From the NCBI GenBank assembly GCA_963749445.1, contig CAVVMJ010000010.1, forward strand, positions 254,021 through 318,020: a stretch of 64,000 nucleotides of DNA. Direction: 5' to 3'. The notes under the pieces are model-generated. The model was not told the DNA's origin, made no database searches, and saw only the letters and a program-made list of their open reading frames with translations. Numbering within the stretch: position 1 is the stretch's first letter; every line of letters starts with the position of its first letter. Positions 4,006-35,090 of the stretch are shown piece by piece. Made by a program: the position numbers and the translations under genes. The DNA comes from an uncultured bacterium. GTDB taxonomy: Bacteria; Patescibacteriota; Doudnabacteria; UBA920.

Positions 4006-4106
4006 ATTGATGGGCATCTTCGTGAATCCACAAAGTTCGCGCGATAATTATCAGTTGTTAAAAAAATATAATTTGCCTTCAAATAACCACTAAGATGCCC
4101 ATCGAG
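4006..4106. repeat. TIR-element copy D1: about 100-bp intergenic element with imperfect 19-bp terminal inverted repeats (TTGATGGGCATCTTCGTG ... CTAAGATGCCCATCGA)
   Basis: The termini are mutually reverse-complementary, and the same termini recur at 8321, 15276, 31106 and 34990. Confidence 0.7.
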
Positions 4107-4218
4107 TCCGGAAGTCCTAAATTGGGGGATAAAGTTTAGGCTGAGGGCGGGATTATCCGACTTAAGCGGAGAAAGAGCGTCCTGGCCTAGCCCTTGTCCC
4201 CCAAAGCGCCATAAATGT

Positions 4219-4256
4219 GATCGCTTTTTTGACGGCCGTCAAAAAAGCGATCACTC
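4219..4256. promoter_or_regulatory. 38-bp perfect palindrome GTGATCGCTTTTTTGACGGCCGTCAAAAAAGCGATCAC. It may be an operator, or a bidirectional terminator
   Basis: The perfect dyad can be read directly. It shares the core TGACGGCCGTCA with the palindrome at 29023..29058. Confidence 0.5.
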
Positions 4257-4304
4257 AATAAATTATCAATCTATATTAACATTAAAGTAAGAAAGGATAA
4301 TAAG

Positions 4305-4772
4305 ATGAACAAGCAAACCATAATCATGGTTGTAGTAGCAGTAGTGTTCGCAGCCGCCGGATTTTTTGGCGGCTACAAGTACAGCCAGGGTAAAGCGCCC
4401 AAAGCCGGGGCCGCGCGTTCAGGCGCTTTTGCGGGCGGAGCAGGCGGCGCGGCAGGCGCCCGCAGGTTCGGCACGGGAAACGATTTTGTAAACGGCACGA
4501 TTTTGTCCAATGACAACGGCCAGCTAACCGTGCAGATGCGCGCCCTGCCCGGCTCTGCCACTTCCACCAGCAGCGGCTCCAAAATTGTTATCTTAAGCGC
4601 CAACACCCAAATTTTCAAAGCCGTAGCGGGCACGCCGGCCGATTTGAGCGTGGGCCAAAGCGTCACGGCCACGGGCGTGGACAATTCCTCCGGCGCCATG
4701 ACCGCGCAAACCATCCAAATCAGCCAAACTCCCCCCGCCGGCCAAGGCACTCCACCCCCGCCGGGACAATAA
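4305..4772 (+). CDS. hypothetical small secreted or membrane-anchored protein (Gly-rich linker, beta-rich C-terminal domain)
   Basis: 155-aa ORF with an N-terminal TM helix, a GGAGGAAG low-complexity segment and a Pro-rich C-terminus. Confidence 0.5.
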   Translation: MNKQTIIMVVVAVVFAAAGFFGGYKYSQGKAPKAGAARSGAFAGGAGGAAGARRFGTGNDFVNGTILSNDNGQLTVQMRALPGSATSTSSGSKIVILSANTQIFKAVAGTPADLSVGQSVTATGVDNSSGAMTAQTIQISQTPPAGQGTPPPPGQ

Positions 4773-4963
4773 ATCACTTTAATGTATTTCCATTTCGACC
4801 TTAAGCTTACCGAGAAGGAGAAATCTATTTATTAACAGATCTCTCCTCGGCTGCACTCGTCGAGATGGACACAATTTCAAAGGCTCGCCATCCATCGGAC
4901 GGTGAGCCTTTAAACTGTCCGCTTCCAAAGTATATACTTGGGTATATACTTTGATATATATTT

Positions 4964-5440
4964 TTATTTTTTTACAATTTGATAATACACCTCCTGGCCG
5001 CGCTCCCCCACCCGGGACAGCTTTCCCAAATTTACCAGATACTCCAAATACCTAGCGGCCGCGGCGTCAGAAATTTTAAGCGCCCGTTGCACATCACCGG
5101 CGGCCAGACGATTATTGCCTTGCGCCAGCGCCAATATCCTGTCCAAATTTTCCCTGCGCTTTGCTATCTGCTCCGGACTTAATAAATTCCCCGATGTGTC
5201 ATCCCCTCGCCCGCGGGAATTTTTTATTATCTGATAAATCCCAAACACGGCCAAAACCACCGCAGCCAAAATCGCCGCTGTTTTTGCGTTCCACATCGCG
5301 CCGAACAAAAGTATCAACGCGATAGCTATGGCAATCATTCCCAAAGTTTTACTACCCATAAAATTTAACCCAATGTCTTTATATTTTACACCTTTTGACA
5401 AAAACAGTGCAATAAAAAATAGCTTAAAGGTTGCGCCCAA
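4964..5440 (-). CDS. membrane-anchored protein with a C-terminal winged-helix-like domain, possibly a regulator paired with the divergent ECF sigma factor
   Basis: 158 aa. Two N-terminal TM helices, then a helical C-terminus (DVQRALKISDAAAARYLEYLVNLGKL). Divergently placed from the sigma-70/ECF gene. Same architecture as 32917..33300. Confidence 0.45.
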   Translation of the reverse strand: MGATFKLFFIALFLSKGVKYKDIGLNFMGSKTLGMIAIAIALILLFGAMWNAKTAAILAAVVLAVFGIYQIIKNSRGRGDDTSGNLLSPEQIAKRRENLDRILALAQGNNRLAAGDVQRALKISDAAAARYLEYLVNLGKLSRVGERGQEVYYQIVKK

Positions 5441-5487
5441 GCTGAAAAAGGCGTAAGATTTATATTGTAAATTAACTATTTCACTCT

Positions 5488-6141
5488 ATGAAAACAGAAA
5501 GCTCGCAAACTCCAGAAACGGCTTTTAACGAGGGCAACGGGAGCGGCTCGACAGAACAAGAGGCGCCGCCTTTGGCCAATAAAGAGTGCAGCGAACAGGA
5601 AATAATCCAGGCCTTAGCCGGCGTGGAAGCTAAAACCAGAAGACTACTGATAAAAATGCTAAAGAAACCCGATGAGGTTGACGATGCTTGGCAAGAAATA
5701 TCAGAACGAATATGGCAAGCTTTATCCGAAGCCAAGTTCAGGGGAGAGTCAACTTTTGACAGCTGGGTTTACCGTATTGCAACAAATGAGGCGAACAGCC
5801 GCCTGAAAAACAAAAAGAATAACCCTCTGCATTATGCCAGTGGGGAAGGTACGATCGATGAACCTCGGGATCACGGCCCAAACCCGGAAGAATTACTACG
5901 GCAAAAACAATTAACCGAACAAATAGCCCGTGTTATGCGAGTTTTGTCGGAAAGAGACCAAAATATTTTATTGCTGAGGGACAGAGACAATCTGCCTGTA
6001 CAAAAAATCGCTGACATTTACGGTTACGGGTTATCAAACACAAAAACATTAATACATAGGGCAAGGAAAAGATTCAGAAAAGAATTTACGCGGCAACAAC
6101 TAATTGACAATCGCGGTCACCCCGGGAAAAATCCTGAATAA
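5488..6141 (+). CDS. RNA polymerase sigma factor, sigma-70 ECF subfamily, with an acidic N-terminal extension
   Basis: Region 2 (WVYRIATNEANSRL) and region 4 HTH (LRDRDNLPVQKIADIYGYGLSNTKTLIHRARKRF) are recognisable. Confidence 0.8.
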   Translation: MKTESSQTPETAFNEGNGSGSTEQEAPPLANKECSEQEIIQALAGVEAKTRRLLIKMLKKPDEVDDAWQEISERIWQALSEAKFRGESTFDSWVYRIATNEANSRLKNKKNNPLHYASGEGTIDEPRDHGPNPEELLRQKQLTEQIARVMRVLSERDQNILLLRDRDNLPVQKIADIYGYGLSNTKTLIHRARKRFRKEFTRQQLIDNRGHPGKNPE

Positions 6142-6200
6142 AAATCATGGTCGGCAAATAACCGTTCGCCCACCGGAAATTTTTATGGTATAATCACAAC

Positions 6201-6785
6201 ATGTCGTGGTACCAACAACTGCTGGGTTTCGTGAGTTTTTCCCGCTACGCGATTGTGTTTGTCGGCTGCATCGTGGAAGGGCCGATTGTCATGATCACCA
6301 GCGGCTTTTTATTGCGCGCCGCCCAGTTCCAAATTTTACCGCTTTACCTTTCGCTGATGGCCGGGGATTTTACGGCCGACCTGGGCTGGTATGCGGTCGG
6401 CCGCTTCGGCGCCCGCACTTTGATCGACCGTTTTGGGCATTACTTTAACCTCACGCCGCTGATCATTACCAAAGTTGAACATCGTTTTAAAAGATACCAG
6501 GACAAAATATTGTTCATTTCCAAAATCACCATGGGCTTTGGCTTTGCCCTGGCCACGCTCATAGTTGCCGGCATGCTGCACGTGCCATTTAAGCGCTACG
6601 CGGCGCTGAACTTTTTGGGCGGCTTTATTTGGACGGCATTTTTAATGCTGTTGGGCTTCTTTTTCGGCAATGTCTATTACATGCTAGCAGGCCCGCTACG
6701 CGCGATTTTTGTGGCGCTGTTAATAATTGTGGTAATTTATGGTTTATGGGCGATTAATCGATATTTAATAAAACAAGAACTATGA
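6201..6785 (+). CDS. DedA/SNARE-associated (TVP38/TMEM64) family membrane protein
   Basis: 194-aa polytopic membrane protein with the DedA-like core (GCIVEGPIVMITSGFLL ... KITMGFGFA). Confidence 0.7.
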   Translation: MSWYQQLLGFVSFSRYAIVFVGCIVEGPIVMITSGFLLRAAQFQILPLYLSLMAGDFTADLGWYAVGRFGARTLIDRFGHYFNLTPLIITKVEHRFKRYQDKILFISKITMGFGFALATLIVAGMLHVPFKRYAALNFLGGFIWTAFLMLLGFFFGNVYYMLAGPLRAIFVALLIIVVIYGLWAINRYLIKQEL

Positions 6786-6792
6786 CGATTTT

Positions 6793-7518
6793 ATGATATC
6801 CTTCATCATTCCAACGCTCAACGAAGAGAAAGTTATAGAAAAGCTGCTGCGCAACCTACGGGAAATTACCACTCTCGATTATGAAATTATTGTCAGCGAC
6901 GGTAAAAGCACCGACAAGACAGTGGAAATAGCCAAAAAACTGGCCGATAAAGTTGTGGAAAACACTTCCGGCCAACGCCAGACCATTGGCCAAGGTCGAA
7001 ATGAGGGGGCCAAGGTTGCCTCCGGTGATCTGCTGATTTTTTTGGATGCCGATGTCCAGGTTCCCGAACCCAATGCGTTTTTTAGCCGCGCACTGGAACA
7101 TTTTAAAAAGGATCCGCAATTATTTGGCCTAAGCGGATGGGTCAGGGTGTTTCCCGAAATCGAAACCTGGGCCGATATTTTTGGCTACGTTATTGTATCG
7201 GACTGCATGTTTTATTTGCTGAACAATATTTTCCACCACGGCTCAACCTGCGGCGAACTTCAAATCATAAAAACCGAAGTGTTTAAAAAGGTTAACGGCT
7301 TCCGGGAAGAATTAGTCGCCGGCGAAGATAAAGATTTGTTCTACCGCATATCCAGACTCGGGCACACCCGGACCGACCCTAAACTTTTAATCTACCATAC
7401 CGGACGGCGGCCCCGGGCAATCGGCTGGCCAAGACTGCTTTGGCAATGGAGCCGCGATACCTTTCACGTGGCAGTCCTGAACAAATCGCACAGCAAGGAA
7501 TGGACGGTAATCCGTTAA
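6793..7518 (+). CDS. glycosyltransferase family 2
   Basis: N-terminal GT-A fold (IIPTLNEEKVIEKLL, DGKSTDKT, the LIFLDADV DxD motif). Confidence 0.8.
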   Translation: MISFIIPTLNEEKVIEKLLRNLREITTLDYEIIVSDGKSTDKTVEIAKKLADKVVENTSGQRQTIGQGRNEGAKVASGDLLIFLDADVQVPEPNAFFSRALEHFKKDPQLFGLSGWVRVFPEIETWADIFGYVIVSDCMFYLLNNIFHHGSTCGELQIIKTEVFKKVNGFREELVAGEDKDLFYRISRLGHTRTDPKLLIYHTGRRPRAIGWPRLLWQWSRDTFHVAVLNKSHSKEWTVIR

Positions 7519-7545
7519 AAAATATTTAAATACGCACGGATGTTT

Positions 7546-7600
7546 AGTGTCAAGGGTCACCCTTGACACAAAGGGTCACCCTTGACACAACTTGACACAA
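7546..7600. promoter_or_regulatory. operator-like repeat cluster: a 21-bp dyad TGTCAAGGG-TCA-CCCTTGACA plus three direct TTGACACAA repeats, immediately upstream of the M23 peptidase gene
   Basis: Read directly: gtgtcaagggtcacccttgacacaaagggtcacccttgacacaacttgacacaa. Confidence 0.5.
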
Positions 7601-8263
7601 TTCCAAATTATGCCAAAAAAATATTTGTTGCTGGCGATATTGCTCGCCGCGGCGGGGTGCGGCAAAACGATTTTGCCGATGAACAATCCGCCGGCCTCTC
7701 CATCGTCTACGCCGCAAACAGTGCAGCAGGCGACGACTACTGATAAGTCTCCGATGCCCCAGCCGACAATCACAGAGCCGATAAGCGGCGGTGTTTCGCG
7801 CGTGACCAAAAAACCGTTTGGCATTTACGTTACGCCGCAAAATTCGCCGGTAAGTCCGGAAAAATTTACCGGCTTTCACACAGGCATTGATTTTGAAACC
7901 ACGCCCACAGAGCAAAATATTGACGTAGCCGTTTACGCGATTTGCGACGGAAAACTGCTGATGAAAAAGTACGCAACAGGCTACGGCGGCGTGGCTGTGG
8001 AAAGTTGCACGATTGATAAAAATCCGGTAACAGTAATTTACGGCCATCTGCGCGAGTCAAGCATTAGCCCAAACATCGGACAAACGCTGACCGCCGGACA
8101 GCAAATCGCCGTGCTCGGCACCGGCTACAGCAGCGAGACCGACGGCGAGCGCAAACATTTGCATTTAGGCATCCATAAAGGCACAGACATTAACATTTTG
8201 GGTTACGTGCAAAAACAATCAGACCTGGCCGCTTGGATAGACCCGTTATTAGTGCTAAAATGA
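7592..8263 (+). CDS. M23-family metallopeptidase (lipoprotein signal, LytM-like)
   Basis: Lipobox-like N-terminus (LLAAAGCGK). M23 motifs HTGIDF and HLHLGIHKGTD. Confidence 0.75.
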   Translation: MTQFQIMPKKYLLLAILLAAAGCGKTILPMNNPPASPSSTPQTVQQATTTDKSPMPQPTITEPISGGVSRVTKKPFGIYVTPQNSPVSPEKFTGFHTGIDFETTPTEQNIDVAVYAICDGKLLMKKYATGYGGVAVESCTIDKNPVTVIYGHLRESSISPNIGQTLTAGQQIAVLGTGYSSETDGERKHLHLGIHKGTDINILGYVQKQSDLAAWIDPLLVLK

Positions 8264-8320
8264 TTTATGGATGGGTGCGCCAAATTGGACGCGCGAGTCG
8301 TACTAAACATAGACGCTTAA

Positions 8321-8422
8321 GTTGATGGGAATCTTCGTGAATGTTTTACCGCCGGCCGATTTTTGTCGGCAGCGGGATAATTACCATCAGCGGTAATACC
8401 AGCAAGAAGATTCCCATCAAAC
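8321..8422. repeat. TIR-element copy D2 (GTTGATGGGAATCTTCGTG ... AAGAAGATTCCCATCAAAC)
   Basis: Terminal inverted repeats with a compensatory change (GGGAATCTT / AAGATTCCC) relative to the other copies. Confidence 0.7.
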
Positions 8423-8475
8423 TGCCAGGAAACCAACCGCTTAAATCAAAAATCAATTAAAATTAACCAAAATTT

Positions 8476-9768
8476 ATGAACAACAATATGTCCCGCAAAG
8501 CGGGATCCGGCTCCGCCGGAAAAAAATACCTCCTTAGCTCCGCGGCGATAATATTCGCCATTTTTGGATTAACCCTAACCGCTTATGCCGCGCCTTTGGC
8601 CAACAGCGCCAAAGTCACGGGCCCAAACACCATTGTGATCACTTATTCCGTGCCGGTTAACACCAGTTTCGGCGACTACAGCAACTTAACCGGCCAGCTG
8701 GCCGGGCGGTCTTTGACCAACTTAAGCGGCAACGGCACCAACACAATTACCCTGACCTTTAGCGGCTCGGCGTTTGCGGCCGATGCCCACGGCGCCATGT
8801 CCGTGGCCAGCACCACCGTGGCCACCGCGGACAATTCCCCTTATACCAACGGCGACATTACCGTAACCGACGGGCAGAACCCGCAGTTCAGCACTTTTGG
8901 CGTTAACGTTTCTTCCAACAGCTCCGGCGCCAACTTGCCCAAAGTCGGCGACACCGTAACTTTAACCTTTACCACCAACGAATCCATTGCCCAGCCTTTA
9001 ATTACTTTGGATGGGCACGCTCTATATCCCAGCGGCACCGGCACCGGCCCGTTTACCCTGACTTATACTTTAGTCAGCGGCGATCCTTTGGGCGCAGTGC
9101 CCTTTAGTTTTAATTTGACCGATTTAACCGGCAATGCCGTACCCATCCAAGGCACGCTGAATTTGACCGGAACTTCCGCGACGGCCGCGCCAACCACAAC
9201 CGCCCCGTCCACTACCGCGACCGCTTCAACCACCGGCCCGGTAATTACCCAAACTACGCCCGTGCCAGACCTTTCCGCCACGGCCACGCCGGTTTACGTT
9301 TTTACCTCCACCGAAGCCGGCACCCTAAACCTTAGCGGCGATTGCAAAAGCTCGCAAACCACGGCGACTGCCGGCATCAACAGCGTTACCTTTACCGCCC
9401 TGGCGGACGGCGCGCACAATAACTGCGTCATCACCCTGACCGATGCGTCCGGCCTAACGAGCAACACAATTTTTATTCCGGCTTTCACGGTCAACACCTC
9501 CGGCGCCGCCGCAACTCCGACCGCAGCCGCACCGGCAACTTTGCAAAGCGACGGTTTTAAATTCACCAAATTCCTTCAGGAAGGAATGACCTCAAACGAC
9601 GTGCTGGAACTGCAACAACGCTTGGCTGCGGAAGGATTTTCACCGGCCCGGTCACCGGTAAATTCGGCGCCATCACTTTAGGCGCGGTCAAAGCCTACCA
9701 AAAAGCCCACGGCATTGACCAAAAAGGCTGGGTCGGCCCCGCCACCCGCGCCGCGCTGAATAAATAGC
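8476..9768 (+). pseudogene. secreted cell-surface protein with Thr-rich repeats and a C-terminal peptidoglycan-binding (PG_binding_1) domain. A -1 frameshift near 9640 truncates the PGB domain
   Basis: Signal peptide plus a long Thr/Ala-rich region. After the ORF stop at 9681, the PGB consensus (GKFGAITLGAVKAYQKAHGIDQKGWVGPATRAALNK) continues in another frame up to 9768. The T4 run in ggattttcacc is one T short of giving EGFFTGPVTGKFG. Confidence 0.6.
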
Positions 9769-9783
9769 AATTGATGAGTATTA

Positions 9784-9822
9784 AAAACCTCTTTCCGGTG
9801 ACTGGCGGGGAGAGGTTTTTTG
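9784..9822. terminator. bidirectional rho-independent terminator between convergent genes
   Basis: aaaacctctttccggtgactggcggggagaggtttttt: a GC stem flanked by A and T runs. Confidence 0.6.
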
Positions 9823-9826
9823 ATGT

Positions 9827-10621: not shown

Positions 10622-10625
10622 AATG

Positions 10626-12322: not shown

Positions 12323-12406
12323 ATTTAATGTTTATTAATTATCTTGTGGCGTTTGGCCGAAAGCTCTCGGCAAAACGCACGGGAAAAAATTATCTGCTTA
12401 TATCTT

Positions 12407-12425
12407 AATGCAAATCATTTGCATT
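12407..12425. promoter_or_regulatory. Zur/Fur box: perfect 19-bp palindrome AATGCAAATCATTTGCATT overlapping a TTGTCA-N17-TAATAT promoter in the znuA/zur divergent spacer
   Basis: Read directly. It lies between the divergent znuACB and fur-family genes. Confidence 0.65.
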
Positions 12426-12459
12426 TGTCAAGAGCCCGATTTTGTGCTAATATCAGAAT

Positions 12460-12888: not shown

Positions 12889-12932
12889 GCCCAATCTCAA
12901 TCTTGCAGATAAAACTCGTCAGCAAATCGCCA

Positions 12933-12957
12933 TAAAGGCGGTTTTTTTGATTGTAAT
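12933..12957. terminator. rho-independent terminator after zur
   Basis: cgccataaaggcggttttttt. Confidence 0.55.
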
Positions 12958-13100: not shown

Positions 13101-13103
13101 TAT

Positions 13104-13733: not shown

Positions 13734-15269
13734 ATGAACCTCAAATCCTTGGAAAAACACCATATTTTCAGCGGCGCGGCCATTTTGGTAATTGTCGTAA
13801 TCGCGATTATCATCAGTTCTAAACTCAAGCAGCAGCCGAGCTACAATTTTGTCAGCGTAAAAAGGCAAACTATTACCCAGGGCGCCACGGAAACCGGCAC
13901 GGTGAAAGCGGCGCAGGATTTGTCTTTGTCATTCCAAAAAAGCGGCAATATTGTCGCGGTGAATGTCAAAGCCGGCGACCGGGTTAAAAAAGGCCAGTTG
14001 CTGGCCGCCCTGGACAGCAAAGACGCCTCCGCCGCCGTAAGCCAGGCCACAGCCGCCCTGGAAGCGGCCCAGGCCAATTACCAGAAAATTTTAAACGGCG
14101 CCACGAGCGCGGACGTTAACGTCGCCCAGACCGCCTTGGATAACGCCAAAAAGAATTCGGACGAGACAACTAAACAGCAAAATCTGATGGTGGCCAACGC
14201 TCTATCCGCCTACTTAAACACCGTTAATCCGACCGGCATGAGCAACGGTTTGTCAGCGGTTCCTAAAACCGGCAATCTCGGCACAGCCGTAATCACCTTA
14301 AGCGGCAGCTACGCCGACACCGCGCCGGGGCAGTATGTTTTGACCGCTTACAGCACCGGCTCGGGTATGAAATTTACCGTCAACGGTTTGGAAACTGCGA
14401 GTGTGGACGTCAAAACCGCACCCGTGGCTCTGGGCACCAAAGGTTTGTTCATCCAGGTCAGCGGCACGCCCGCGGCCAACGACAGCTGGACGGTAAGCAT
14501 CCCCAACACGCAATCCCCTTCCTATATTCCCGATTACAACGCCTACAATGCCGCCCAAGAAGCACGCAGCCAGGCAATACTCAACGCGCAAAATGCCGTG
14601 GACGCGGCCCAGGCCGCCCTGGATTTAAAACAAACCGCGGCCCGGCCCGAAGACATCGCCTCGGCCAAAGCCCAAATGGACGCGGCCGCGGCCCAGCTGC
14701 AGCTGGCGCAAAATTCCTACAGCGACAATTCCATTGTCTCCCCGATTGACGGCATCGTGACCTCTGTGGACGCCAAAGTCGGCGAACTGGCCAGCCCGGG
14801 CAAACCCATACTATCGCTAATCTCCAGCCAAAAATTTCAAATCGAAACCTACGTTTCGCAGAACGATTTGGGAAAAATTAAAATCGGCGACAAAGCCGCG
14901 GTCACGCTTGACGCCTACGGCAGTGGCGTAAATTTTGACGCCTCGGTAATCAGCATTGATCCGGCCGCCACCGTGCAGAACAACATTGCCGGCTACAAAG
15001 TCACTTTGCAGTTCAACCAAAACGACGATCGGGTAAAAGAAGGACTAAACGCCAACATTGCCATTTTTGACGATAGCCGTGACAATGTCCCGGCAATTCC
15101 GGCCGGCGACATTATTACCAAAAATAACCAAAAATTCGTTATTAAAGATGTCGGCAACGGCAAAACCGCGCAGGTGCAGGTGCAAACCGGTTTGATTGGC
15201 ATGGACAATATGGCGGAAATTACCAACGGCCTGAATGACGGCGACCGCATCGTGAATTTGGGAAATTAA
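13734..15269 (+). CDS. HlyD-family membrane fusion protein (paralog of 158..1849)
   Basis: 511 aa. Same architecture and the same beta-rich insertion (ITLSGSYADTAPGQYVLTAYSTGSGMKFTVNG...) as the first MFP. Confidence 0.75.
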   Translation: MNLKSLEKHHIFSGAAILVIVVIAIIISSKLKQQPSYNFVSVKRQTITQGATETGTVKAAQDLSLSFQKSGNIVAVNVKAGDRVKKGQLLAALDSKDASAAVSQATAALEAAQANYQKILNGATSADVNVAQTALDNAKKNSDETTKQQNLMVANALSAYLNTVNPTGMSNGLSAVPKTGNLGTAVITLSGSYADTAPGQYVLTAYSTGSGMKFTVNGLETASVDVKTAPVALGTKGLFIQVSGTPAANDSWTVSIPNTQSPSYIPDYNAYNAAQEARSQAILNAQNAVDAAQAALDLKQTAARPEDIASAKAQMDAAAAQLQLAQNSYSDNSIVSPIDGIVTSVDAKVGELASPGKPILSLISSQKFQIETYVSQNDLGKIKIGDKAAVTLDAYGSGVNFDASVISIDPAATVQNNIAGYKVTLQFNQNDDRVKEGLNANIAIFDDSRDNVPAIPAGDIITKNNQKFVIKDVGNGKTAQVQVQTGLIGMDNMAEITNGLNDGDRIVNLGN

Positions 15270-15275
15270 TTACAA

Positions 15276-15378
15276 GTTGATGGGCATCTTCTTGCGCCCA
15301 TATCGGTCAACGGATATTGGCTGGCTGATGCATCCATTATCATCAACTGTAATTTAACCACGAAGATGCCCATCAAAC
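15276..15378. repeat. TIR-element copy D3 (GTTGATGGGCATCTTCTTG ... CACGAAGATGCCCATCAAAC)
   Basis: 19-20-bp terminal inverted repeats around a unique interior. Intergenic, downstream of the MFP gene. Confidence 0.7.
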
Positions 15379-26227: not shown

Positions 26228-26310
26228 GGATTACGGATTAATACGGATATACAGATAACTGCAGTATCCGTAATCCGTATATCCGTATTAAATCAGTAAT
26301 CTATAACCCT

Positions 26311-27003: not shown

Positions 27004-27096
27004 TATGAGATACCAATATACTAATACATGCGAATAATACTAATCAGTTTGCATTCGTATTATTAGTATCATTAGTACCATTGGTATATTAGTATC

Positions 27097-28230: not shown

Positions 28231-28295
28231 TAAAAAATTTTCTTCCGCTAAAATTTTATTACGACTTTTGCCGCAATTGCGGCAAAAGTCGTAAT

Positions 28296-29048: not shown

Positions 29049-29058
29049 AAACAGAATC
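29023..29058. promoter_or_regulatory. perfect 34-36-bp palindrome GATTCTGTTTGTGACGGCCGTCACAAACAGAATC at the junction of two tandem genes
   Basis: Read directly. Shares the core TGACGGCCGTCA with 4219..4256. Confidence 0.5.
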
Positions 29059-29060
29059 AG

Positions 29061-29969
29061 CTACTTTCTTGATTGAACTCCGTGGCCTCCAAATTGTTTC
29101 CTCAATAGTGCCACAATTTTATTGGAAAATTTTTCCTGATTTTTTTTGTCTGAGGATTCTTGACGCACTTTTAATGAATCTTCAATGACGCGCGCGTCCA
29201 CACCCAATTCTTTAGCCGCGCTCACGGTCCATTCCCCCTCGCCGGTAGCCTCGATGAATCCCGATGTTGATTCAATGTCTTCGTTTTCAAAAATATCGCG
29301 CACCAAGTCAATCAGCCAGCTTTTGATTACCGACCCTTCCTGGTAAATTTTGGTAACCTGGTTTAAATCCAATTTAAATTCACTCGCATGCAGCACGCCG
29401 TAGCCCTCAGCGATTGATTCCATCATCCCGTACTCAATGCCGTTATGCACCATTTTAACAAAATGCCCAGCGCCGTTTTTGCCGACCAGCCCATAGTTCT
29501 CTCCGGATGATAAAGCCTTCATCAGCGGCTCAATTTTTGGCCACTGCTCCTTTGGCCCGCCGACCATAAGCGCGAAACCGTTTTTTTCGCCCCACACTCC
29601 CCCGCTAGTACCACAATCATAAAACACTATCCCCTTAGCCCTTAGCCCTTCTGCCCTCCTGATGGAATCTTTATAGAAAGAGTTACCGCCGTCTATTACA
29701 ATATCGCCGGGCTTTAAATGCGGGCCGAGCTGGTTTTGCAAAAATTCGTCCACAATTTTGTGCGGCAGCATCAGCCAGAAAACTCGCGACTGATCAGTCA
29801 TATTTTTCAACAGCCGCCCAACATCAGCGAACGCCTTTACTCCGGCCTTGGCGACTTCTTCGCGCGGACCGGCCGACCGGTTCCACGCCAAAATCTCAAA
29901 CCCGCAGCTTTGCAGCCGCCGCGCAATCTGCCCGCCCATTTTGCCTAACCCAAATATCGCTACTTTCAT
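29061..29969 (-). CDS. gnd: 6-phosphogluconate dehydrogenase, decarboxylating, short (about 300 aa) NAD(P)-binding form
   Basis: Rossmann N-terminus MKVAIFGLGKMGGQIARRL plus the 6PGDH C-domain. Adjacent to zwf. Confidence 0.8.
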   Translation of the reverse strand: MKVAIFGLGKMGGQIARRLQSCGFEILAWNRSAGPREEVAKAGVKAFADVGRLLKNMTDQSRVFWLMLPHKIVDEFLQNQLGPHLKPGDIVIDGGNSFYKDSIRRAEGLRAKGIVFYDCGTSGGVWGEKNGFALMVGGPKEQWPKIEPLMKALSSGENYGLVGKNGAGHFVKMVHNGIEYGMMESIAEGYGVLHASEFKLDLNQVTKIYQEGSVIKSWLIDLVRDIFENEDIESTSGFIEATGEGEWTVSAAKELGVDARVIEDSLKVRQESSDKKNQEKFSNKIVALLRKQFGGHGVQSRK

Positions 29970-30406
29970 AACTTTATGAAATATTGGGTAATAATAAAAG
30001 TTAACGCCACGCCTTCAACCACGGCAAAAACAACGTCAAAAAAGCTGTGGCCGCTGAAGTCCAGTAAAATTTTGTCCTTGATGATTGTCCGCAAAGCAAG
30101 GTCTTGGCTTTTGGCAAAATAGCTTTCAAAAATCAGCTCCCGCTTGTGATCTTCCAACAGGCCGTAAATGATTATCAGCGCCAAAAACAGGCAAAAACCG
30201 AACAGTGCGCCAAGTCCCTGGCTCAAACCGACTAAATACAGCGCCGAGGTCAGCACCGCCGTATGCGCGCTGGGAAAGCTGCCGACCCACAAGACCGACC
30301 AGGAAAAACGATTGTCGAGAATGTTCCGCCGGCGCTTAAGCAGCACAAAAAATTTAATCAGCTGGTTAACAATATAGACTATCAGCGGCACCAAAATGAA
30401 TTTCAT
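29966..30406 (-). CDS. divergent PAP2 (DUF212, YuiD-like) family membrane protein
   Basis: 146 aa with a GSFPSAHTA motif and 3-4 TMS. Confidence 0.5.
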   Translation of the reverse strand: MKFILVPLIVYIVNQLIKFFVLLKRRRNILDNRFSWSVLWVGSFPSAHTAVLTSALYLVGLSQGLGALFGFCLFLALIIIYGLLEDHKRELIFESYFAKSQDLALRTIIKDKILLDFSGHSFFDVVFAVVEGVALTFIITQYFIKL

Positions 30407-30447
30407 ACTGTCTTAATTATAGCAAAAAATTGCCTTCTTGCCGATTT

Positions 30448-31056
30448 TTAATCTTTGATCCGCAAACTCGCCCAAAGATGACGGCTGGCAACGGTTTTAT
30501 ACGGGTGCCAGGCATCCAACAATTTTTCCAGTTTTCGATGGTGACGTTTTGCGTCTATCTTATATAGTTTTTTCAAACCATTGCGCAAACCCAAATCGCC
30601 GGCAGAAAAAACGTTCGGCCGCGCCAGGGAAAACATCAAAAACATTTCCGCGGTCCAGCGCCCGATGCCCTTTATGGTTATCAGTTGGCTGATAATTTCC
30701 TCATCCTCCATTTGCGAAAACTTTTTAAACTCCACATTCCCCTTTTCCACAGAACGGGCGAGATTCTTGATGTAGGATATTTTTTGGAACGACAGCCCGG
30801 CTGTGCGCAATTTTTTATCAGAAACTTTTAAAACCTCAGTTGGTTTGGGAAACCGCCCCATAAATAAATCGCGAAATCTTTTTTCTATCGTGGCCGCGGC
30901 CTTGCCCGAAAGTTGCTGGTTGATAATAGAAACCACCAAAGATTCAAAATGATTGCGGCGGGTCCTCAGCGGCATCACTTTGGCGCGCTTAATTACCGCG
31001 GCCATTATCGGGTCTGCCTTAGAAAGATGCAATAATGCCTGTTTATGATGATCCAT
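30448..31056 (-). CDS. DNA-3-methyladenine glycosylase II / HhH-GPD family base-excision glycosylase
   Basis: HhH-GPD motif (IKGIGRWTAEMFLMFSLARPNVFSAGDLGLRNG). Confidence 0.75.
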   Translation of the reverse strand: MDHHKQALLHLSKADPIMAAVIKRAKVMPLRTRRNHFESLVVSIINQQLSGKAAATIEKRFRDLFMGRFPKPTEVLKVSDKKLRTAGLSFQKISYIKNLARSVEKGNVEFKKFSQMEDEEIISQLITIKGIGRWTAEMFLMFSLARPNVFSAGDLGLRNGLKKLYKIDAKRHHRKLEKLLDAWHPYKTVASRHLWASLRIKD

Positions 31057-31105
31057 AAAGGTACTATATCAGTATTTCGCTACTTTTTAAAAACGTGGGC
31101 TTAAA

Positions 31106-31207
31106 GTTGGTGGGCATCTTCACGCGGTAACAAAGGCTAATCGATATTTATAAGCAGGCGCATCAGCCATTGTCAACAATAAACAACCTTAAAGATTCCC
31201 ATCAAAC
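31106..31207. repeat. TIR-element copy D4 (GTTGGTGGGCATCTTCACG ... TTAAAGATTCCCATCAAAC), partly degenerate
   Basis: Terminal motifs match family D, with imperfect pairing. Confidence 0.6.
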
Positions 31208-31450
31208 ATATTGGCAATCAGGGAGGTAACTTAAACAATTATTGCCTAAGATAAGACCAAAATCAATAAAATCATTGACAAAATTATTTAGATGTGACAT
31301 AATGTATAAACTAATCAATCTATTAGACTCGTACTCATACTTATCTGAAATACTGAAATATTTCCGACCTTTGAGAAAACGGGTCGGAAATATTATTTAT
31401 GACACCACCCTTCGGCTCCGCTCAGGGTTTCGGTGTCTAAATTGTAAAAC

Positions 31451-32852
31451 TATGATACCTCAACAACCTACGTTTGACGGCCTGGGCATTGCGCCAAAAC
31501 TTTTAGAGATACTTGACAGGCTCCAATTTAAAACGCCCACGCCAATCCAGCTCCAGTCCATTCCGACCGCCCTGCAAGGCAAGGACATTATGGGCATTGC
31601 CCAAACCGGCACGGGCAAAACCCTGGCTTTCGGCATACCCATGATCCAACGCCTGGCAAAGGACAAAGGCCGTGGCCTGATTATTCTGCCCACGCGCGAA
31701 CTCGCCGTGCAGGTGGATGAAGCCTTAAACAAACTCGGCCGGCCCATTGGGCTGAAGACCGCGGTGTTAATCGGCGGGGAAAACATCGGCAAGCAAATCC
31801 GCCAGCTAAGAAACAACCCGCACATTATTATTGCCACGCCGGGAAGGCTGATTGACCATTTGGAACAAAAAACCGTCCGACTCAACGACGTCGTAATTTT
31901 GATTTTGGATGAGGCCGACCGCATGCTGGATATGGGTTTTGCGCCGCAGATAAAAAAAATCCTGGTCACCGTACCGGCCAAAAGGCAGACCATGCTGTTT
32001 TCCGCAACCATGCCCCAGGAAATTGTGCAAATTGCCAACTCTTATATGCAGCTGCCCGTACGCGTGGAAGTTGCCCCGTCCGGCACCGCGGCGCAACTGG
32101 TAACCCACGAGCTGTTTTTTGTCCATAAGCAGGACAAAATGGCGCTGCTGGAAAACCTGCTTAAAGAATACAAAGGCAGCGTGCTGATTTTTTCCCGCAC
32201 CAAATTCGGCGCCAAAAAAATCGCGGCCAGCCTGAACCGCTTGGGTCACACGGCCGCGGAAATCCACAGTAACCGTTCACTAAACCAACGCCTGGAGGCC
32301 CTAAACGGCTTTAAGGTCGGCAAATACAGGGTTTTGGTAGCCACGGACATTGCCGCGCGCGGCATAGATGTTACCGGCATTGAACTGGTCATAAATTTTG
32401 ATTTACCGGAACAGGCCGAAGATTACGTGCACCGGATTGGCCGGACCGGCCGCGCCGAACACAGCGGCCACGCCATCTCCTTTGCCACGCCCGAGCAAAA
32501 ATTTGATGTCCGCGCCATTGAACGGCTCATTAAAAAACAATTACCCGTCTCTCCCCTGCCGGCGCTCCCCGAAAGAAAAATTACGGACGATTATTCTCCC
32601 GTGCGCCAACACCGCAGCACAGGTTTTGGCGGTTTCCGCAGGCCTGACCGGCATTCGCGCGACAGCTTTGGCAGCCACGGCCAATCCCGGCCGTCACAAA
32701 CCCCCGAGCCTTTGCGCAGCCGTTTTGCCCGCCACAGTCGCTCGAGCAGCGACGTGGCCCGCAGGACCGGGCCGCCATCAAGCGGCCAAAAATTCCGCCC
32801 CCGCCGGCAATTCAAAACCTTCCGCCGCATGCCCCAGGACAGATCGTTCTAA
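31451..32852 (+). CDS. DEAD-box ATP-dependent RNA helicase with an Arg/Ser/Pro-rich C-terminal tail
   Basis: Q-motif, Walker A AQTGTGKT, PTRELA, DEAD, SAT, HRIGRTGR. The track ORF begins at 31242, but the likely start is the M at 31451. The leader contains a 12-bp perfect-stem hairpin (atatttccgacc...ggtcggaaatat). Confidence 0.85.
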
Positions 32853-32857
32853 TCGAT

Positions 32858-32900
32858 ATAAAACCGCCTTTCGAGCGTAATCGAGAAGCGGTTTTTTAAA
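32858..32900. terminator. bidirectional terminator between convergent genes
   Basis: aaaaccgcctttcgagcgtaatcgagaagcggtttttt. Confidence 0.5.
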
Positions 32901-32916
32901 TTTCCAATCAACCAAT

Positions 32917-33300
32917 CTAAAACAAATTAAATTCCGAATCCTTATTCAAGGCAAAACTGTTGTCGCCGTTTTCATCCCTGAATTGGCGCACGATGCCCCG
33001 GGCTTCCAGTTGGCCCAAATACTGCACGGCCTGCGACTCTTCTACCAAAAGCGCTTGGATTACTTCCTGCATGGTAGCTCCCTCGCTATGCCCCAACAAA
33101 AAATTATAGAGTTTCTCCAGATTTTCCGCGTTCTCCTGGGCTTGTTTTGTCAGCCGGATCTGTTCCCGGCCGCCGGCCACGCTTTGCCGGCGCCAAATAA
33201 ACAAAACCAAGCCGATGCCCAACAGGACCCAGCACCGACTAGAACTACTTTGATTATCTCTGCATCCGACATTAAGCAATAAATTAATTCTTCTAGCCAA
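32917..33300 (-). CDS. membrane-anchored protein with a C-terminal winged-helix-like domain (paralog-like to 4964..5440)
   Basis: 127 aa. N-terminal TM, then ENLEKLYNFLLGHSEGATMQEVIQALLVEESQAVQYLGQLEARGIV. Confidence 0.4.
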   Translation of the reverse strand: MARRINLLLNVGCRDNQSSSSRCWVLLGIGLVLFIWRRQSVAGGREQIRLTKQAQENAENLEKLYNFLLGHSEGATMQEVIQALLVEESQAVQYLGQLEARGIVRQFRDENGDNSFALNKDSEFNLF

Positions 33301-33445
33301 ATTATAGCTTATTTTAACTGGAATGCAAACTCCGCCTTAGTTTTGCTAAATCGATGGCCAAAAAATCACGTGGGATATTTGTCTGATATCGGAAATTCAA
33401 CAAATCCTGTCTTGATTCATTCTTCATTATTCATTATTCTGAATA

Positions 33446-34930
33446 CTACCTCGTCTGCCACTTCCGGTCGTCTTTGGCCATAAGCTCGTCCGACTGCTTG
33501 GGGCCGTTACGCCCAGGTTTGTACTTATAAAGCGGCAGGCTCCTAAACACCGGGCTGTCGGTAATGCTGTCCACGAATTTCCAGGCGGCCTCTATTTCGT
33601 CGCTACGGATAAATAAGCGCTGGTCGCCCTCCATAAAATCGAGCAGCAGCCGTTCGTAAGCCGACGGGATTTCGCTCTGGAAATTTTTTTGGTAGCCAAA
33701 CTCGTAATCGCCCTGGTGGAGCTGGATGCCAAAGCCGGGCACTTTGTTGTTGAGCCGCAAATGCACGGACTCGTCCGGCTGGATACGGAAAGTCAAAACA
33801 TTGGCCGCGCAGCCTTCAAACAGGCAGCGCGCCTGTTCGCGGAAATGGATGGAAATTTCCGTGAGTTTTTTGCTCAGGCGTTTGCCGGTGCGCAAATAAA
33901 ACGGCACGCCGGCCCAGCGCGGCAAATTTATGTAAGTTTTTAGGGCAAAAAAAGTTTCCGTGGCGCTTGTCCCGCCCTTGGGGCTTAGGCTTTTGATGTC
34001 TTTGGCATAACCTTAGTACTGGCCCAAAACCAGCCGCGCCGGCAACTTGTCCGGCCCCAGAATCTGGAGCGCGTTAAGAACGCGCAGTTTTTCGTTGCGG
34101 ATCATGTCCGCAGTCAGCTGGTACGGCTCTTCCATGGCAATCAACGCCAACATTTGCAAAATATGATTTTGTAAAAAATCTTTAATCGCCCCGGTCCGGT
34201 CGTAATACGCGGCGCGGCCGCCCACGCTGTCTTTTTCCAAAACCGAAATTTCCACGTGCTCAATGAAGCGATTATTCCACAGCGGCTCAAACAAAGAATT
34301 GGCAAAACGCACCACCATCAAATTCTGCACCGTTTCCTTGCCCGCGTAATGGTCAATGCGGTAAATTTGGTCTTCGGCAAAATACTTGAGCAACAGGGCG
34401 TTTAAATCCCGCGCGGATTTTAAATTAAAGCCAAAAGGTTTCTCCGCCAAAATCCGGACTTTGCGCCCGTGTGCCGCGCAAGCGGAAAGCAGGCCGGTCT
34501 GCTTTAAAATTCGGGCGATGGAAGCGAAAAACTGCGGGCTGGTTGCAAAATAATATAACCGGTTAAAACACTTATGCCGAGGCTGTTCTTTGGTTTCCAA
34601 AAGTTTAGTTAGCGGGCCAAAAGACGATACATCCGTAAAATCGCCCTGAAAATAAGTCAAATTGCGCAAAAAATGCTGGCGCTGTTTTTGGGTGATTTTT
34701 TTAATGACCGAAGATTTTTTAACAATGAAGTCAAGATATTTTTCGCTGGTCAGAGGCCTCCTGCCCACGCAAACCAGCTGGAAATCTGCCGGCAGCATGC
34801 CTTCCTGGTCCATATGAAGTAGCGCCGGCAGCAGGTAGTCGGAGGACAAATCGCCGGTGGCGCCAAAGATGGTCAAAACCGTGGGCGGCAACTTTTGAAT
34901 TAAATAATGGAACCCAAAGCCATGTTTCAT
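33446..34930 (-). pseudogene. zwf: glucose-6-phosphate dehydrogenase (zwf) interrupted by a single in-frame TAA at 34013..34015
   Basis: N-terminal ORF has GATGDL, EKPFG, RIDHYAGKE and ends ...LVLGQY*. The same frame continues as GYAKDIKSLSPKGGTSATETFFALKTYINLPRWAGVPFYLRTGKRL..., which is the G6PD C-domain. The two halves are in one frame. Confidence 0.8.
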
Positions 34931-34989
34931 AAAAACCCCGATTTAACTATACATCAAGAAACCTAGTAAGACAATCCCCTGTTAATGCC

Positions 34990-35090
34990 TTGATGGGCAC
35001 CTTCGAGGTTGTAGTTTAGTTGACGGTCATAGACGCGCTGATTAATGAAAATCGACAAACCTATTTTGTCGCACGAAGGTGCCCATCAAG
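34990..35090. repeat. TIR-element copy D5 (TTGATGGGCACCTTCGAGG ... CACGAAGGTGCCCATCAAG)
   Basis: Terminal inverted repeats with compensatory substitutions (GGGCACCTTCG / CGAAGGTGCCC). Confidence 0.7.

What the first reader, a model, noticed from the sequence alone, without database searches (positions are those of the whole stretch)
4006..35090. Five intergenic elements of about 100 bp with conserved, covarying 19-20-bp terminal inverted repeats (GTTGATGGGCATCTTCGTG / CACGAAGATGCCCATCAAC)
Copies sit at 4006-4106, 8321-8422, 15276-15378, 31106-31207 and 34990-35090. All share the same terminal arms but have unrelated interiors of 60-75 nt. Where an arm is mutated, the partner arm carries the compensating change: GGGAATCTT with AAGATTCCC in D2, and GGGCACCTTCG with CGAAGGTGCCC in D5. 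That is the covariation signature of a selected stem, in DNA or RNA, rather than random decay. They lie at gene 3' ends or in divergent promoter spacers. A possible degenerate half-copy is at 39831-39850 (CTTGATGGGTCGGG). Candidates: a MITE-like mobile element with TIRs, a REP/BIME-like structural element, or a family of structured RNAs with a shared closing helix.
Basis: seen in the sequence. Interest (0 to 1): 0.8.

Follow-up and report, generated by a model that had tools for sequence, protein, structure and literature searches.

The report
REPIN-like hairpin repeats in a CPR bacterium
The five ~100-bp elements are real inverted-repeat hairpin elements of the REP/REPIN type, the small non-coding DNA that a single-strand "tyrosine transposase" (RAYT/TIRYT) spreads through a genome; the kind is known, but this family sits in the tiny genomes of candidate-phyla-radiation bacteria, where I found no published description.

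Summary
Five intergenic ~100-bp elements (4007-4105, 8322-8420, 15277-15376, 31107-31205, 34990-35089) carry the inverted arms TTGATGGGCATCTTC.../...GAAGATGCCCATCAA. The 14-nt cores lie 71-72 nt apart in every copy. The interiors are not unrelated: they are weakly homologous, asymmetric and fall into subfamilies.

The same arms occur in Patescibacteria (CPR) MAGs of four lineages and in about 30 metagenome contigs. Gaps there are mostly 69-73 nt, and the stem extends with covarying bases.

The decisive result is that in three other CPR contigs (L027, L054, L055) inverted arms with the identical core GATGGGCATCTT flank a 170-183-aa HUH/Y1 transposase gene. That protein is closest to REP-associated tyrosine transposases (NCBIfam NF047646, PDB 4ER8). 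This is the REPIN/RAYT, or "TIRtron/TIRYT", architecture.

There are no target-site duplications, no orientation bias relative to genes, no Rfam match and no conserved interior fold. These results argue against a DDE-type MITE or a structured RNA.

No transposase gene lies in the 64-kb window, so mobilisation in trans is inferred, not shown.

Verdict: a new member of a known kind, of moderate interest.

The parts
4007..4105 (+). Element D1. The left arm is 4007-4024 (TTGATGGGCATCTTCGTG) and the right arm is 4088-4105 (CACTAAGATGCCCATCGA). The interior belongs to subfamily A. It starts 4 nt after the stop codon of a MacB/FtsX-type permease gene (2764-4002).
8322..8420 (.). Element D2. The arms are 8322-8339 and 8403-8420 and carry the compensated variant GGGAATC/GATTCCC. 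The imperfect stem extends to 31 nt (84% complementary). Its orientation by interior is ambiguous. It lies 58 nt after an M23 peptidase gene and 55 nt before ORF 8476-9681.
15277..15376 (+). Element D3. The arms are 15277-15294 and 15359-15376 (18 nt, 94% complementary). It starts 7 nt after the stop codon of a HlyD-family gene (13734-15269).
31107..31205 (+). Element D4, the most degraded copy. The left arm is TTGGTGGGCATCTTCACG and the right arm ends ...AAAGATTCCCATCAA, with one G.T pair and one uncompensated C/T. It lies in the divergent spacer between an HhH-GPD glycosylase gene (30448-31056, minus strand) and a DEAD-box helicase gene (31242-32852, plus strand).
34990..35089 (-). Element D5. 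The arms are 34989-35005 and 35074-35090 (17 nt, 100% complementary) and carry the compensated variant GGGCACC/GGTGCCC. By its interior it is oriented on the minus strand. It lies between the start of G6PD (34930, minus strand) and the end of an AI-2E transporter gene (35460, minus strand).

Best explanation
The five elements are REPIN-like doublets. Each consists of two inverted copies of a 15-20-nt repeat with a GATGGGCATCTT core, separated by a spacer of fixed length (about 65 nt) and free sequence. Together they fold into a long hairpin in single-stranded DNA.

They belong to a family spread in Patescibacteria (CPR) genomes. They are the non-coding counterparts of a unit in which the same inverted arms flank a RAYT/TIRYT-type HUH-Y1 (IS200-like) tyrosine transposase gene.

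The proposed mechanism is as follows. The genome's own Y1 enzyme is encoded outside this window. It recognises the hairpin foot, with its conserved GATGG head, on single-stranded DNA, for example at the replication fork. It cuts and rejoins without making target duplications, and so copies or moves the ~100-bp unit into intergenic DNA in either orientation. Copies keep both arms complementary because only a foldable hairpin is a substrate.

Shown here:
- the anatomy of the elements;
- the complementarity and covariation of the arms;
- the length constraint on the spacer;
- intergenic dispersal in both orientations;
- absence of target-site duplications;
- absence of the elements from syntenic relatives;
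- physical association of the identical arm core with Y1 genes in three other genomes.

Inferred, not shown:
- that this genome has a cognate enzyme;
- that the enzyme acts on these copies;
- that the copies are still mobile.
For: 1. Identical arm cores flank Y1 transposase genes.
- L027: arms at 1237(+) and 1903(-) flank a 183-aa ORF that matches Pfam Y1_Tnp at E=3.9e-11.
- L054: the 19-nt perfect inverted repeat TGATGGGCATCTTAGCAGA flanks P0122.
- L055: GGGCATCTTCCACAC arms flank P0127.

2. The protein family is RAYT-like.
- The best NCBIfam model is NF047646, REP-associated tyrosine transposase (E 1e-14 to 1e-20). The IS200 model reaches only E about 0.004.
- A 34-sequence profile hits only PDB 4ER8 (E. 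coli TnpA-REP) at E=4.5e-4, with the HUH and YIxxNP motifs aligned.
- JGI names several homologues RayT.

3. Other CPR homologues are flanked by compact hairpins with the same head. Examples are GATGGGAGTCTTC-CA-GAAGACTCCCATC on both sides in L046, and GATGGTGACCATTGTGCAT...57 nt...ATGCACAATGGTCACCATC in L052/L053.

4. MurJ-Y1-LepA synteny is shared by L027, L054 and L052/L053. This fits a vertically inherited single-locus gene, as described for RAYTs (PMC5581495).

5. The element features match published REPINs: conserved ends, a variable spacer, discrete spacing classes and compensatory changes (PMC3116915, PMC3337134). They also match the TIRtron/TIRYT class (PMC3733652).

6. The stem covaries across 33 diverse copies. 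There are 80 double-change cells against 43.8+-4.5 in shuffles (0 of 500 reach the observed value). The covariation score is 0.199 against 0.098, and slid controls give 0.05-0.08.

7. The gap between cores is 66-73 nt in the genome-collection hits, although 55-85 was allowed.

8. No target-site duplication is found.

9. Both orientations occur relative to flanking genes.

10. G.T and A.C mismatches in the arms are symmetric, 12 against 10.

11. Syntenic relatives L043-L045 have no copy in about 20 kb each.
Against: - No Y1 transposase gene lies in the 64-kb window (tblastn; six-frame hmmsearch). The rest of the genome could not be retrieved, so the cognate enzyme is unverified.
- The single arms are not palindromes themselves, unlike classical REPs. 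They also lack the unpaired GTAG or CGTC tag.
- The Y1 proteins score below NCBIfam's curated cut-off for RAYT (53-73 bits against 80).
- No clean filled-versus-empty site pair was obtained, so mobility and exact element ends are not demonstrated.
- The window copies differ strongly in their interiors yet all keep intact arms, and no decayed copy or singlet is found. That fits selection on the arms at each locus, a possible host function, as well as it fits pure selfish spread.
- Covariation within the close family is not significant. The outside copies were ascertained by exact arm matches, which inflates apparent arm conservation.
Confidence: 0.75

Rival explanations
1. A host-selected cis-element. 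The conserved 15-bp hairpin foot would be kept at each locus because a host factor uses it. The factor could be a domesticated Y1 enzyme, a nucleoid or replication protein, or an RNase acting on the transcript. The use could be mRNA 3'-end protection, transcription punctuation or DNA structuring. Transposition would then be only the way the copies first arrived.
For: - All five window copies keep both arms although their interiors have diverged to near-randomness, and nhmmer finds no decayed copy or singlet.
- The same 14-nt core is shared by MAGs labelled Saccharibacteria, Doudnabacteria, Daviesbacteria and Nomurabacteria, whereas REPs are usually species-specific.
- Copies abut gene ends. 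The distances are 4 and 7 nt in the window, and in four outside loci the stop codon lies inside the TTGA of the arm.
- At a probably orthologous site (L021/L032) the arms are identical while the interior is only about 60% identical.
Against: - The outside copies were retrieved by exact arm matches, so their arm conservation is partly by construction.
- Syntenic relatives lack the elements entirely, so the elements are dispensable.
- Both orientations occur and there is no T-run, so they are not canonical terminators.
- No candidate binding factor other than the Y1 enzyme was identified.
Confidence: 0.15
2. A family of structured non-coding RNAs or cis-regulatory RNA elements that share a closing helix.
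For: - All elements fold with significant z-scores, -2.2 to -9.5.
- The closing helix covaries.
- In the window, the orientation of each copy by its interior agrees with the direction of a neighbouring gene.
- A weak G.T over A.C excess (44 against 29) occurs in an internal palindromic motif.
Against: - Across all loci the orientation relative to genes is mixed: same/same 8, opposite/opposite 15.
- RNAalifold finds only the closing stem as consensus structure.
- The internal hairpin has no covariation beyond what column composition gives.
- There are no Rfam matches at the elements even at E<=1.
- Arm mismatches are strand-symmetric.
- The same arms flank a protein-coding transposase gene.
Confidence: 0.05
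3. A classical MITE: an internally deleted insertion sequence mobilised by a DDE transposase that binds the TIRs in double-stranded DNA.
For: The elements are about 100 bp with 15-20-bp TIRs, are intergenic, have several copies and show presence/absence among relatives.
Against: - No target-site duplication of 2-6 bp is found at any tested offset in 41 copies.
- Compensatory arm changes and stem covariation are not expected for independent protein-binding TIRs.
- The only gene found between such arms is a Y1/HUH enzyme, not a DDE enzyme.
- No longer element with these TIRs lies in the window.
Confidence: 0.04
4. Degenerate long intrinsic terminator hairpins, or chance palindromes.
For: Some copies lie just after stop codons.
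Against: - None of the five copies has a T-run after the stem.
- D4 lies in a divergent promoter spacer.
- The arm sequence is conserved across genomes and lineages, which terminators do not need.
- The window has its own ordinary short GC-rich palindromes with T-runs.
- The chance expectation for the arms is 0.01.
Confidence: 0.01

Closest known systems
[quoted passage not shown] 2017, PMC5581495)
   Same: - Two highly conserved inverted end sequences are separated by a spacer that varies in sequence but falls in narrow length classes. In SBW25 the GI class is 69-72 nt; here the gap is 71-72 nt.
- The total length is about 90-100 bp.
- The location is extragenic.
- Compensatory changes keep the hairpin.
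- The same end sequence flanks a single-locus Y1 transposase gene.
- No target duplication is reported there or seen here.
   Different: - The arms here are not imperfect palindromes in their own right. In relatives such as L046 the two arms abut as one compact hairpin, so the window elements look like one REP hairpin with a roughly 65-nt loop rather than two REP hairpins.
- The head is GATGG and is base-paired, not an unpaired GTAG.
- The Y1 proteins fall below the NCBIfam RAYT cut-off.
- The hosts are Patescibacteria.
- The same core is shared across several phylum-level lineages, whereas REPs are usually species-specific.
TIRtrons / TIRYTs (TIR-associated tyrosine transposases) and their dispersed TIR repeat families (Di Nocera et al. 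2013, PMC3733652)
   Same: - RAYT-like Y1 genes are flanked by terminal inverted repeats rather than GTAG REPs.
- The TIRs are also found as moderately abundant dispersed families, often as dimers.
- HUH and the catalytic Tyr are conserved.
- Some repeats lie inside genes, as in L027.
   Different: - The described TIRs (some share a GGGGWSAS motif) come from Proteobacteria, Acidobacteria and similar groups. The paper does not contain the string GATG.
- No CPR examples were found in the searched literature.
- Whether the CPR proteins group with TIRYTs or with RAYT groups 1-5 was not tested by phylogeny.
IS200/IS605 insertion sequences (TnpA Y1; IS608, ISDra2)
   Same: - The HUH-Y1 catalytic domain is shared.
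- The enzyme recognises hairpins in single-stranded DNA.
- There are no target-site duplications.
- From my own memory, ISDra2 inserts 3' of TTGAT, which is also the first five bases of these arms. This is a lead only.
   Different: - IS200/IS605 ends are not terminal inverted repeats, and those elements are multi-copy with the gene included.
- Here the gene sits at a syntenic locus (MurJ-Y1-LepA) in three genomes.
- The IS200 model matches only at E about 0.004.
- No IS200-type PDB chain is hit.
Bacterial MITEs with long hairpins (ERIC, Correia/NEMIS, RUP, Nezha) and Rickettsia palindromic elements
   Same: They have a similar size (about 100-150 bp), are imperfect palindromes and lie intergenic next to gene ends. 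In-frame copies inside genes occur in Rickettsia RPEs and in L027 here.
   Different: Those MITEs derive from, or are attributed to, DDE insertion sequences with target duplications (for example TA for Correia elements), and their interiors are conserved. Here there is no duplication, the interior is free and the partner enzyme is a Y1 protein.

Membership tests
REPIN / RAYT system | Two inverted copies of a conserved short repeat, separated by a spacer, that together are predicted to form a hairpin | tested here: met
   The arms are 15-18 nt with 63-68 nt between them. Fold z-scores are -2.2 to -6.8 for the window copies. The stem covaries across diverse copies.
REPIN / RAYT system | Repeats are over-represented and extragenic | tested here: met
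   There are ten arms against 0.01 expected. All five elements are intergenic. The genome-wide copy number is unknown, because only 64 kb is held.
REPIN / RAYT system | The same repeat flanks a RAYT (Y1/HUH) gene in the same genome | not testable with these tools
   No Y1 gene lies in the window. The rest of the 372-kb contig could not be fetched. The feature is met in three other genomes with the identical 12-nt core: L027, L054 and L055.
REPIN / RAYT system | The associated protein is a RAYT: HUH motif, catalytic Tyr in YIxxNP, closer to TnpA-REP than to IS200 TnpA | tested here: inconclusive
   HUH (PNHFHLL) and YIxxNP are invariant or nearly so. The best NCBIfam model is NF047646, but at 53-73 bits it is below the 80-bit cut-off. 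The only PDB hit is 4ER8 TnpA-REP at E=4.5e-4.
REPIN / RAYT system | Each REP is itself a short imperfect palindrome with an unpaired 5' GTAG (or CGTC) tag | tested here: not met
   The arms are not self-complementary beyond GATG..CATC, and that pairing is broken in D2 and D5. The head is GATGG and is paired with the other arm.
REPIN / RAYT system | The RAYT gene is single-copy and vertically inherited | tested here: inconclusive
   MurJ-Y1-LepA synteny is seen in L027, L054 and L052/L053 at 59-69% protein identity to the L027 protein. Copy number per genome was not testable.
REPIN / RAYT system | Evidence of mobility, such as excision products or filled/empty sites | tested here: inconclusive
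   Syntenic relatives at 78-81% TypA identity have no copy in about 20 kb each. Their intergenic DNA is too diverged to define an empty site.
TIRtron / TIRYT (Di Nocera 2013) | A RAYT-like Y1 gene flanked by terminal inverted repeats that are not GTAG REPs, with the TIR also dispersed as a repeat family | tested here: met
   L027, L054 and L055 show the arm-gene-arm arrangement. Dispersed doublets with the same core occur in the window and in about 40 other loci. The definition is taken from PMC3733652.
DDE-transposase MITE | Target-site duplication flanking the TIRs | tested here: not met
   No direct repeat of 2-6 bp is found at any tested offset in 41 copies.
Integron attC site | R''(RYYYAAC)...R'(GTTRRRY) ends, sites in same-orientation arrays after cassette ORFs, next to an intI integrase | tested here: not met
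   The ends are the reverse arrangement (GTTGATG...CATCAAC, with GTT on the outside). Spacing between copies is 4-16 kb among housekeeping genes, and orientation is mixed. The attC consensus is from my own knowledge.
Known structured RNA family (Rfam 15) | A match to a curated covariance model | tested here: not met
   There is no match at any element at the gathering score or at E<=1.
Intrinsic terminator | A GC-rich hairpin followed by a T-run, downstream of genes | tested here: not met
   No T-run follows any right arm. D4 lies between divergent gene starts.

The most novel reading that the evidence does not exclude
The GATGGGCATCTT hairpin foot may be a conserved, host-maintained cis-element of Patescibacteria, recognised by a vertically inherited, domesticated Y1 enzyme. 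It would be kept intact at individual loci by selection while the ~65-nt loop drifts freely. On this reading it is a long-lived REPIN-RAYT partnership spanning several CPR phylum-level lineages with one shared recognition sequence. It would serve a genome-maintenance or gene-expression role in organisms with extremely reduced genomes.
Probability: 0.18. Interest if true: 0.65.

Novelty: new member of a known kind. Interest (0 to 1): 0.4.

Why it matters
REPIN/RAYT systems have been studied mainly in Proteobacteria and Cyanobacteria. My searches of the held literature found no paper linking them to Patescibacteria/CPR.

CPR genomes are about 1 Mb, tightly packed and thought to be poor in mobile DNA. 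A dispersed hairpin-repeat family with a partner Y1 enzyme shows that this kind of element persists even there.

The element offers three uses:
- a defined DNA substrate (GATGG head plus 15-bp stem) for testing CPR Y1 enzymes;
- markers for strain typing in metagenomes;
- a case where the same recognition core is shared across distant lineages, which bears on whether such systems are selfish or co-opted.

Practically, it warns annotators that ATG and TGA triplets inside the arms can be mis-called as gene starts or stops.

Tried and rejected
- Exact-protein look-ups to fetch the rest of the window's contig failed.
- The viral collection has no copy.
- The target-site duplication search was negative.
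- The orientation-versus-gene test showed no bias, so I dropped the cis-regulatory RNA idea. It had looked attractive because all five window copies agree with a neighbouring gene.
- RNAalifold and a hand-specified internal hairpin around the conserved CGATAATTATCG motif gave no covariation support.
- The G.T against A.C asymmetry test for strand-specific folding was symmetric in the arms.
- Small ORFs starting at the ATG inside the arm (MGIF...) are not conserved in length or sequence across copies. I read this directly and rejected them.
- I considered attC sites and rejected them on end polarity and context.
- The Lachnospiraceae hits L009 and L010 carry true inverted repeats with a GGGG variant. 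One lies inside an ORF and neither interior is related, so I left them out of the family.
- L025 and L035 have no stem beyond the searched core and may be chance matches. By my own arithmetic, about 0.5 chance hits were expected for the pattern in the genome collection.
- The arms-versus-interior conservation test at orthologous loci (L021/L032) is compromised, because loci were retrieved by exact arm matches.

Full report
**1. The observation**

A 14-nt core scan (TTGATGGGNAYCTT) finds all ten arms in five facing pairs. These pairs are 4007/4105, 8322/8420, 15277/15376, 31107/31205 and 34990/35089.

The gap between the 14-nt cores is 71 or 72 nt in every pair. The sequences confirm the compensated variants in D2 (GGGAATC/GATTCCC) and D5 (GGGCACC/GGTGCCC). 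D1 and D4 also carry a G.T pair and uncompensated mismatches. All five fold as a long closing stem with a large, variably folded interior, with z-scores of -2.2 to -6.8.

All five are intergenic:
- D1 lies 4 nt after a MacB/FtsX permease gene.
- D3 lies 7 nt after a HlyD-family gene.
- D2 lies between an M23 peptidase gene and an unannotated ORF.
- D4 lies between divergent glycosylase and DEAD-helicase genes.
- D5 lies between G6PD and an AI-2E transporter gene, both on the minus strand.

The proposed half-copy at 39831 is not supported.

**2. Host and distribution**

The window's TypA protein is 100% identical to a protein on a 372-kb NCBI/ENA contig. Its closest named relatives (about 80% identity) are from Candidatus Doudnabacteria and the Patescibacteria group. 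The window is therefore a CPR genome.

I scanned 185,579 species genomes with both arm cores and a free 55-85-nt gap. This gave ten loci:
- eight in MAGs labelled Saccharibacteria, Doudnabacteria, Daviesbacteria and Nomurabacteria;
- two in Lachnospiraceae MAGs, carrying a GGGG variant.

The same scan of metagenome contigs gave 32 loci, mostly from one group of JGI samples. The viral collection gave none.

The gaps in the genome-collection hits are 66-73 nt although 55-85 was allowed. The CPR copies are intergenic. In the more distant CPR copies the stem continues past the conserved core with copy-specific complementary bases. Examples are CTAGCATG/CATGCTAG-type extensions, with perfect stems up to 23 bp and z-scores down to -9.5.

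**3. The interiors**

After orienting the copies by their interiors, most align without large gaps into subfamilies. They share an asymmetric pattern that includes a conserved C-GAT(A/G)(A/T)TT(A/G)T(C/T)-GG motif left of centre.

I built a profile only from the interiors of non-window copies, with the arms removed. It ranks the five window interiors among its top seven hits in the whole window, in the predicted orientations. The interiors are therefore diverged homologues of constant length, not unrelated sequences. The window holds members of at least three subfamilies.

**4. Structure tests**

RNAalifold on 33 close copies predicts only the closing stem. In that set the stem is almost invariant, so covariation is not significant.

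I then tested 33 diverse copies over 24 stem positions. Positions 15-24 were not constrained by the search. Covariation there is clear:
- 80 double-change cells against 43.8+-4.5 in shuffles, with 0 of 500 shuffles reaching the observed value;
- a covariation score of 0.199 against 0.098 for shuffles and 0.05-0.08 for slid controls;
- all four Watson-Crick pair types at pairs 16-20.

At the two free positions inside the searched core, six compensated changes stand against three uncompensated ones. An internal hairpin around the conserved motif is not supported beyond what column composition gives. G.T and A.C mismatches in the arms are balanced, 12 against 10. The helix is therefore not strand-specific.

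**5. What it is not**

- Not a DDE-type MITE: no target-site duplication at any tested offset in 41 copies.
- Not a strand-specific RNA element: orientation relative to flanking genes is mixed, with 8 same/same and 15 opposite/opposite.
- Not a known RNA family: no Rfam match even at E<=1.
- Not an intrinsic terminator: no T-run after the stem.
- Not part of a longer element in this window: there is no solo arm and no longer element with these ends. nhmmer at maximum sensitivity finds only the five copies.

**6. The decisive lead**

One metagenome contig, L027, carries many arms (GATGGGCATCTTAGCCGA). Two of them, at 1237(+) and 1903(-), flank a 183-aa ORF that matches Pfam Y1_Tnp (IS200-like) at E=3.9e-11.

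This protein has more than 4,000 homologues. The organism names given are all Patescibacteria lineages, and several are named "REP element-mobilizing transposase RayT" by JGI.

Two further homologues are flanked in the same way by inverted arms with the identical core:
- L054: TGATGGGCATCTTAGCAGA, a 19-nt perfect inverted repeat whose arms overlap the MurJ stop codon and the called LepA start codon.
- L055: GGGCATCTTCCACAC.

Other CPR homologues are flanked by related hairpins with the same GATGG head:
- L046: GATGGGAGTCTTC-CA-GAAGACTCCCATC on both sides of the gene. The two arms abut here as one compact palindrome.
- L052/L053: 19-nt arms separated by 57 nt.

The family's best NCBIfam model is REP-associated tyrosine transposase, although below its cut-off. 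The IS200 model is far weaker. A profile of 34 members hits only the E. coli TnpA-REP structure 4ER8, aligning the HUH motif and the YIxxNP tyrosine region.

L027, L054 and L052/L053 share MurJ-Y1-LepA synteny. This behaviour resembles a vertically inherited single-locus RAYT more than a hopping insertion sequence.

**7. Comparison with the literature**

Bertels and Rainey describe REPINs as follows (PMC3116915, PMC3337134). Two conserved inverted ends are separated by a spacer whose sequence is free. The spacer's length falls in narrow classes, 69-72 nt for the main SBW25 class. Compensatory changes are common, and the same ends lie next to the RAYT gene.

Di Nocera et al. describe RAYT-like genes flanked by TIRs rather than GTAG REPs, which they call TIRtrons and TIRYTs (PMC3733652). 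The TIRs are dispersed as moderately abundant families, often as dimers, and some repeats lie inside genes.

The window elements fit these descriptions. They differ in four ways:
- the arms are not self-palindromic;
- the head is GATGG and is base-paired;
- the host is CPR;
- the core is shared across several lineages, whereas REPs are normally species-specific.

I found no paper that holds RAYT or REPIN together with Patescibacteria. One 2026 preprint holds "REP-associated tyrosine transposase" together with "candidate phyla radiation", but only in passing.

**8. Gaps in the argument**

The window has no Y1 gene, and the rest of the genome could not be retrieved. Action in trans by a cognate enzyme is therefore inferred.

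Relatives with the same G6PD-AI2E-TypA synteny lack any copy. This shows presence/absence variation but not a clean empty site.

All window copies keep intact arms while their interiors have diverged. This could mean selection on the arms at each locus, that is, co-option by the host. I keep that as the main rival and as the most novel reading still open. Arm conservation in the outside copies is partly an artefact of how they were found.

**9. Verdict**

This is a real, non-random repeat family. It is best explained as REPIN-like (TIRYT/RAYT-associated) hairpin elements of a CPR bacterium. It is a new member of a known kind and of moderate interest.

Noticed in passing
window 33446-34930 (minus strand); stop codon at 34013-34015: The G6PD gene is interrupted by one in-frame TAA (...LGQY*GYAKD...). 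This splits it into ORFs 34013-34930 and 33446-33925. The syntenic relatives have intact genes of 490-496 aa. It is a pseudogene, a sequencing or assembly error, or a recoding event.
   Followed up: partly
window 36490-36589 and 26238-26291: A second, unrelated long-hairpin repeat is present. One is a 100-bp hairpin with 46-nt arms just upstream of TypA. The other is a 54-bp hairpin. They share the motif TTAATACGGATATAC. The second also gives spurious palindromic microRNA-model hits in Rfam at E about 0.007.
   Followed up: partly
L027 7710-9923 (minus strand), arms at 8007-8018 and 8616-8627; also 1096-1107 inside MurJ: In another CPR genome, single arms lie in frame inside a class I aminoacyl-tRNA synthetase ORF of 737 aa that Pfam matches as tRNA-synt_1 plus Anticodon_1. 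They encode ...DGHLSRLSRDTRDTRD... and ...AKMPIY.... The first arm is followed by direct repeats of CTTAGCCGA. Another arm lies in frame in MurJ. This recalls in-frame palindromic elements such as the Rickettsia RPEs.
   Followed up: partly
L054 2389-2408 and 2999-3018; several other loci (ORF distances of -4 and -11): The arms contain TGA (in TTGATGG) and ATG (in AAGATGCCC). In L054 the MurJ stop codon and the called LepA start codon both lie inside the arms. In four other loci a gene's stop codon is the arm's TGA. This is a risk of mis-called gene ends, or a real use of the element's codons.
   Followed up: no
L009 4735-4835 and L010 817-910 (Lachnospiraceae MAG contigs): These are inverted repeats with the same outer bases but a GGGG(A)TC or GGGGACC variant, compensated in both arms. 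L010 has a 22-bp perfect stem and L009 lies inside a 404-aa ORF. They may be a related family outside CPR or a convergent one.
   Followed up: no
L004 5878-5974 and L008 989-1085 (same 162-kb Saccharibacteria contig): These two copies share about 75% of their interior. They also share bases outside the arms (GAGCCC on the left, GACAYGCT on the right). The mobilised unit may therefore extend a few bases beyond the hairpin, as at IS200/IS605 ends.
   Followed up: no
window elements, alignment A2 columns 37-51 (for example window 4041-4054 in D1): The conserved palindromic interior motif (C)CGATAATTATCG(G), or GAT(A/G)(A/T)TT(A/G)T, is the only interior stretch near 90% conserved. It has no covariation support as a hairpin, and its role is unknown. 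It could be a second protein site or a remnant of a third repeat head.
   Followed up: partly
window 56613-56976: ARAGORN calls a permuted tmRNA here, but Rfam finds no tmRNA at the gathering score, and the region lies inside a 403-aa ORF on the other strand (56565-57776). It is probably a false positive.
   Followed up: no
L045 13131-17593: Compared with L043/L044, the relative L045 carries extra genes between the DNA polymerase III delta-like gene and the pilus genes. They include a LexA-like repressor and a large serine recombinase, which may mark an integrated element.
   Followed up: no
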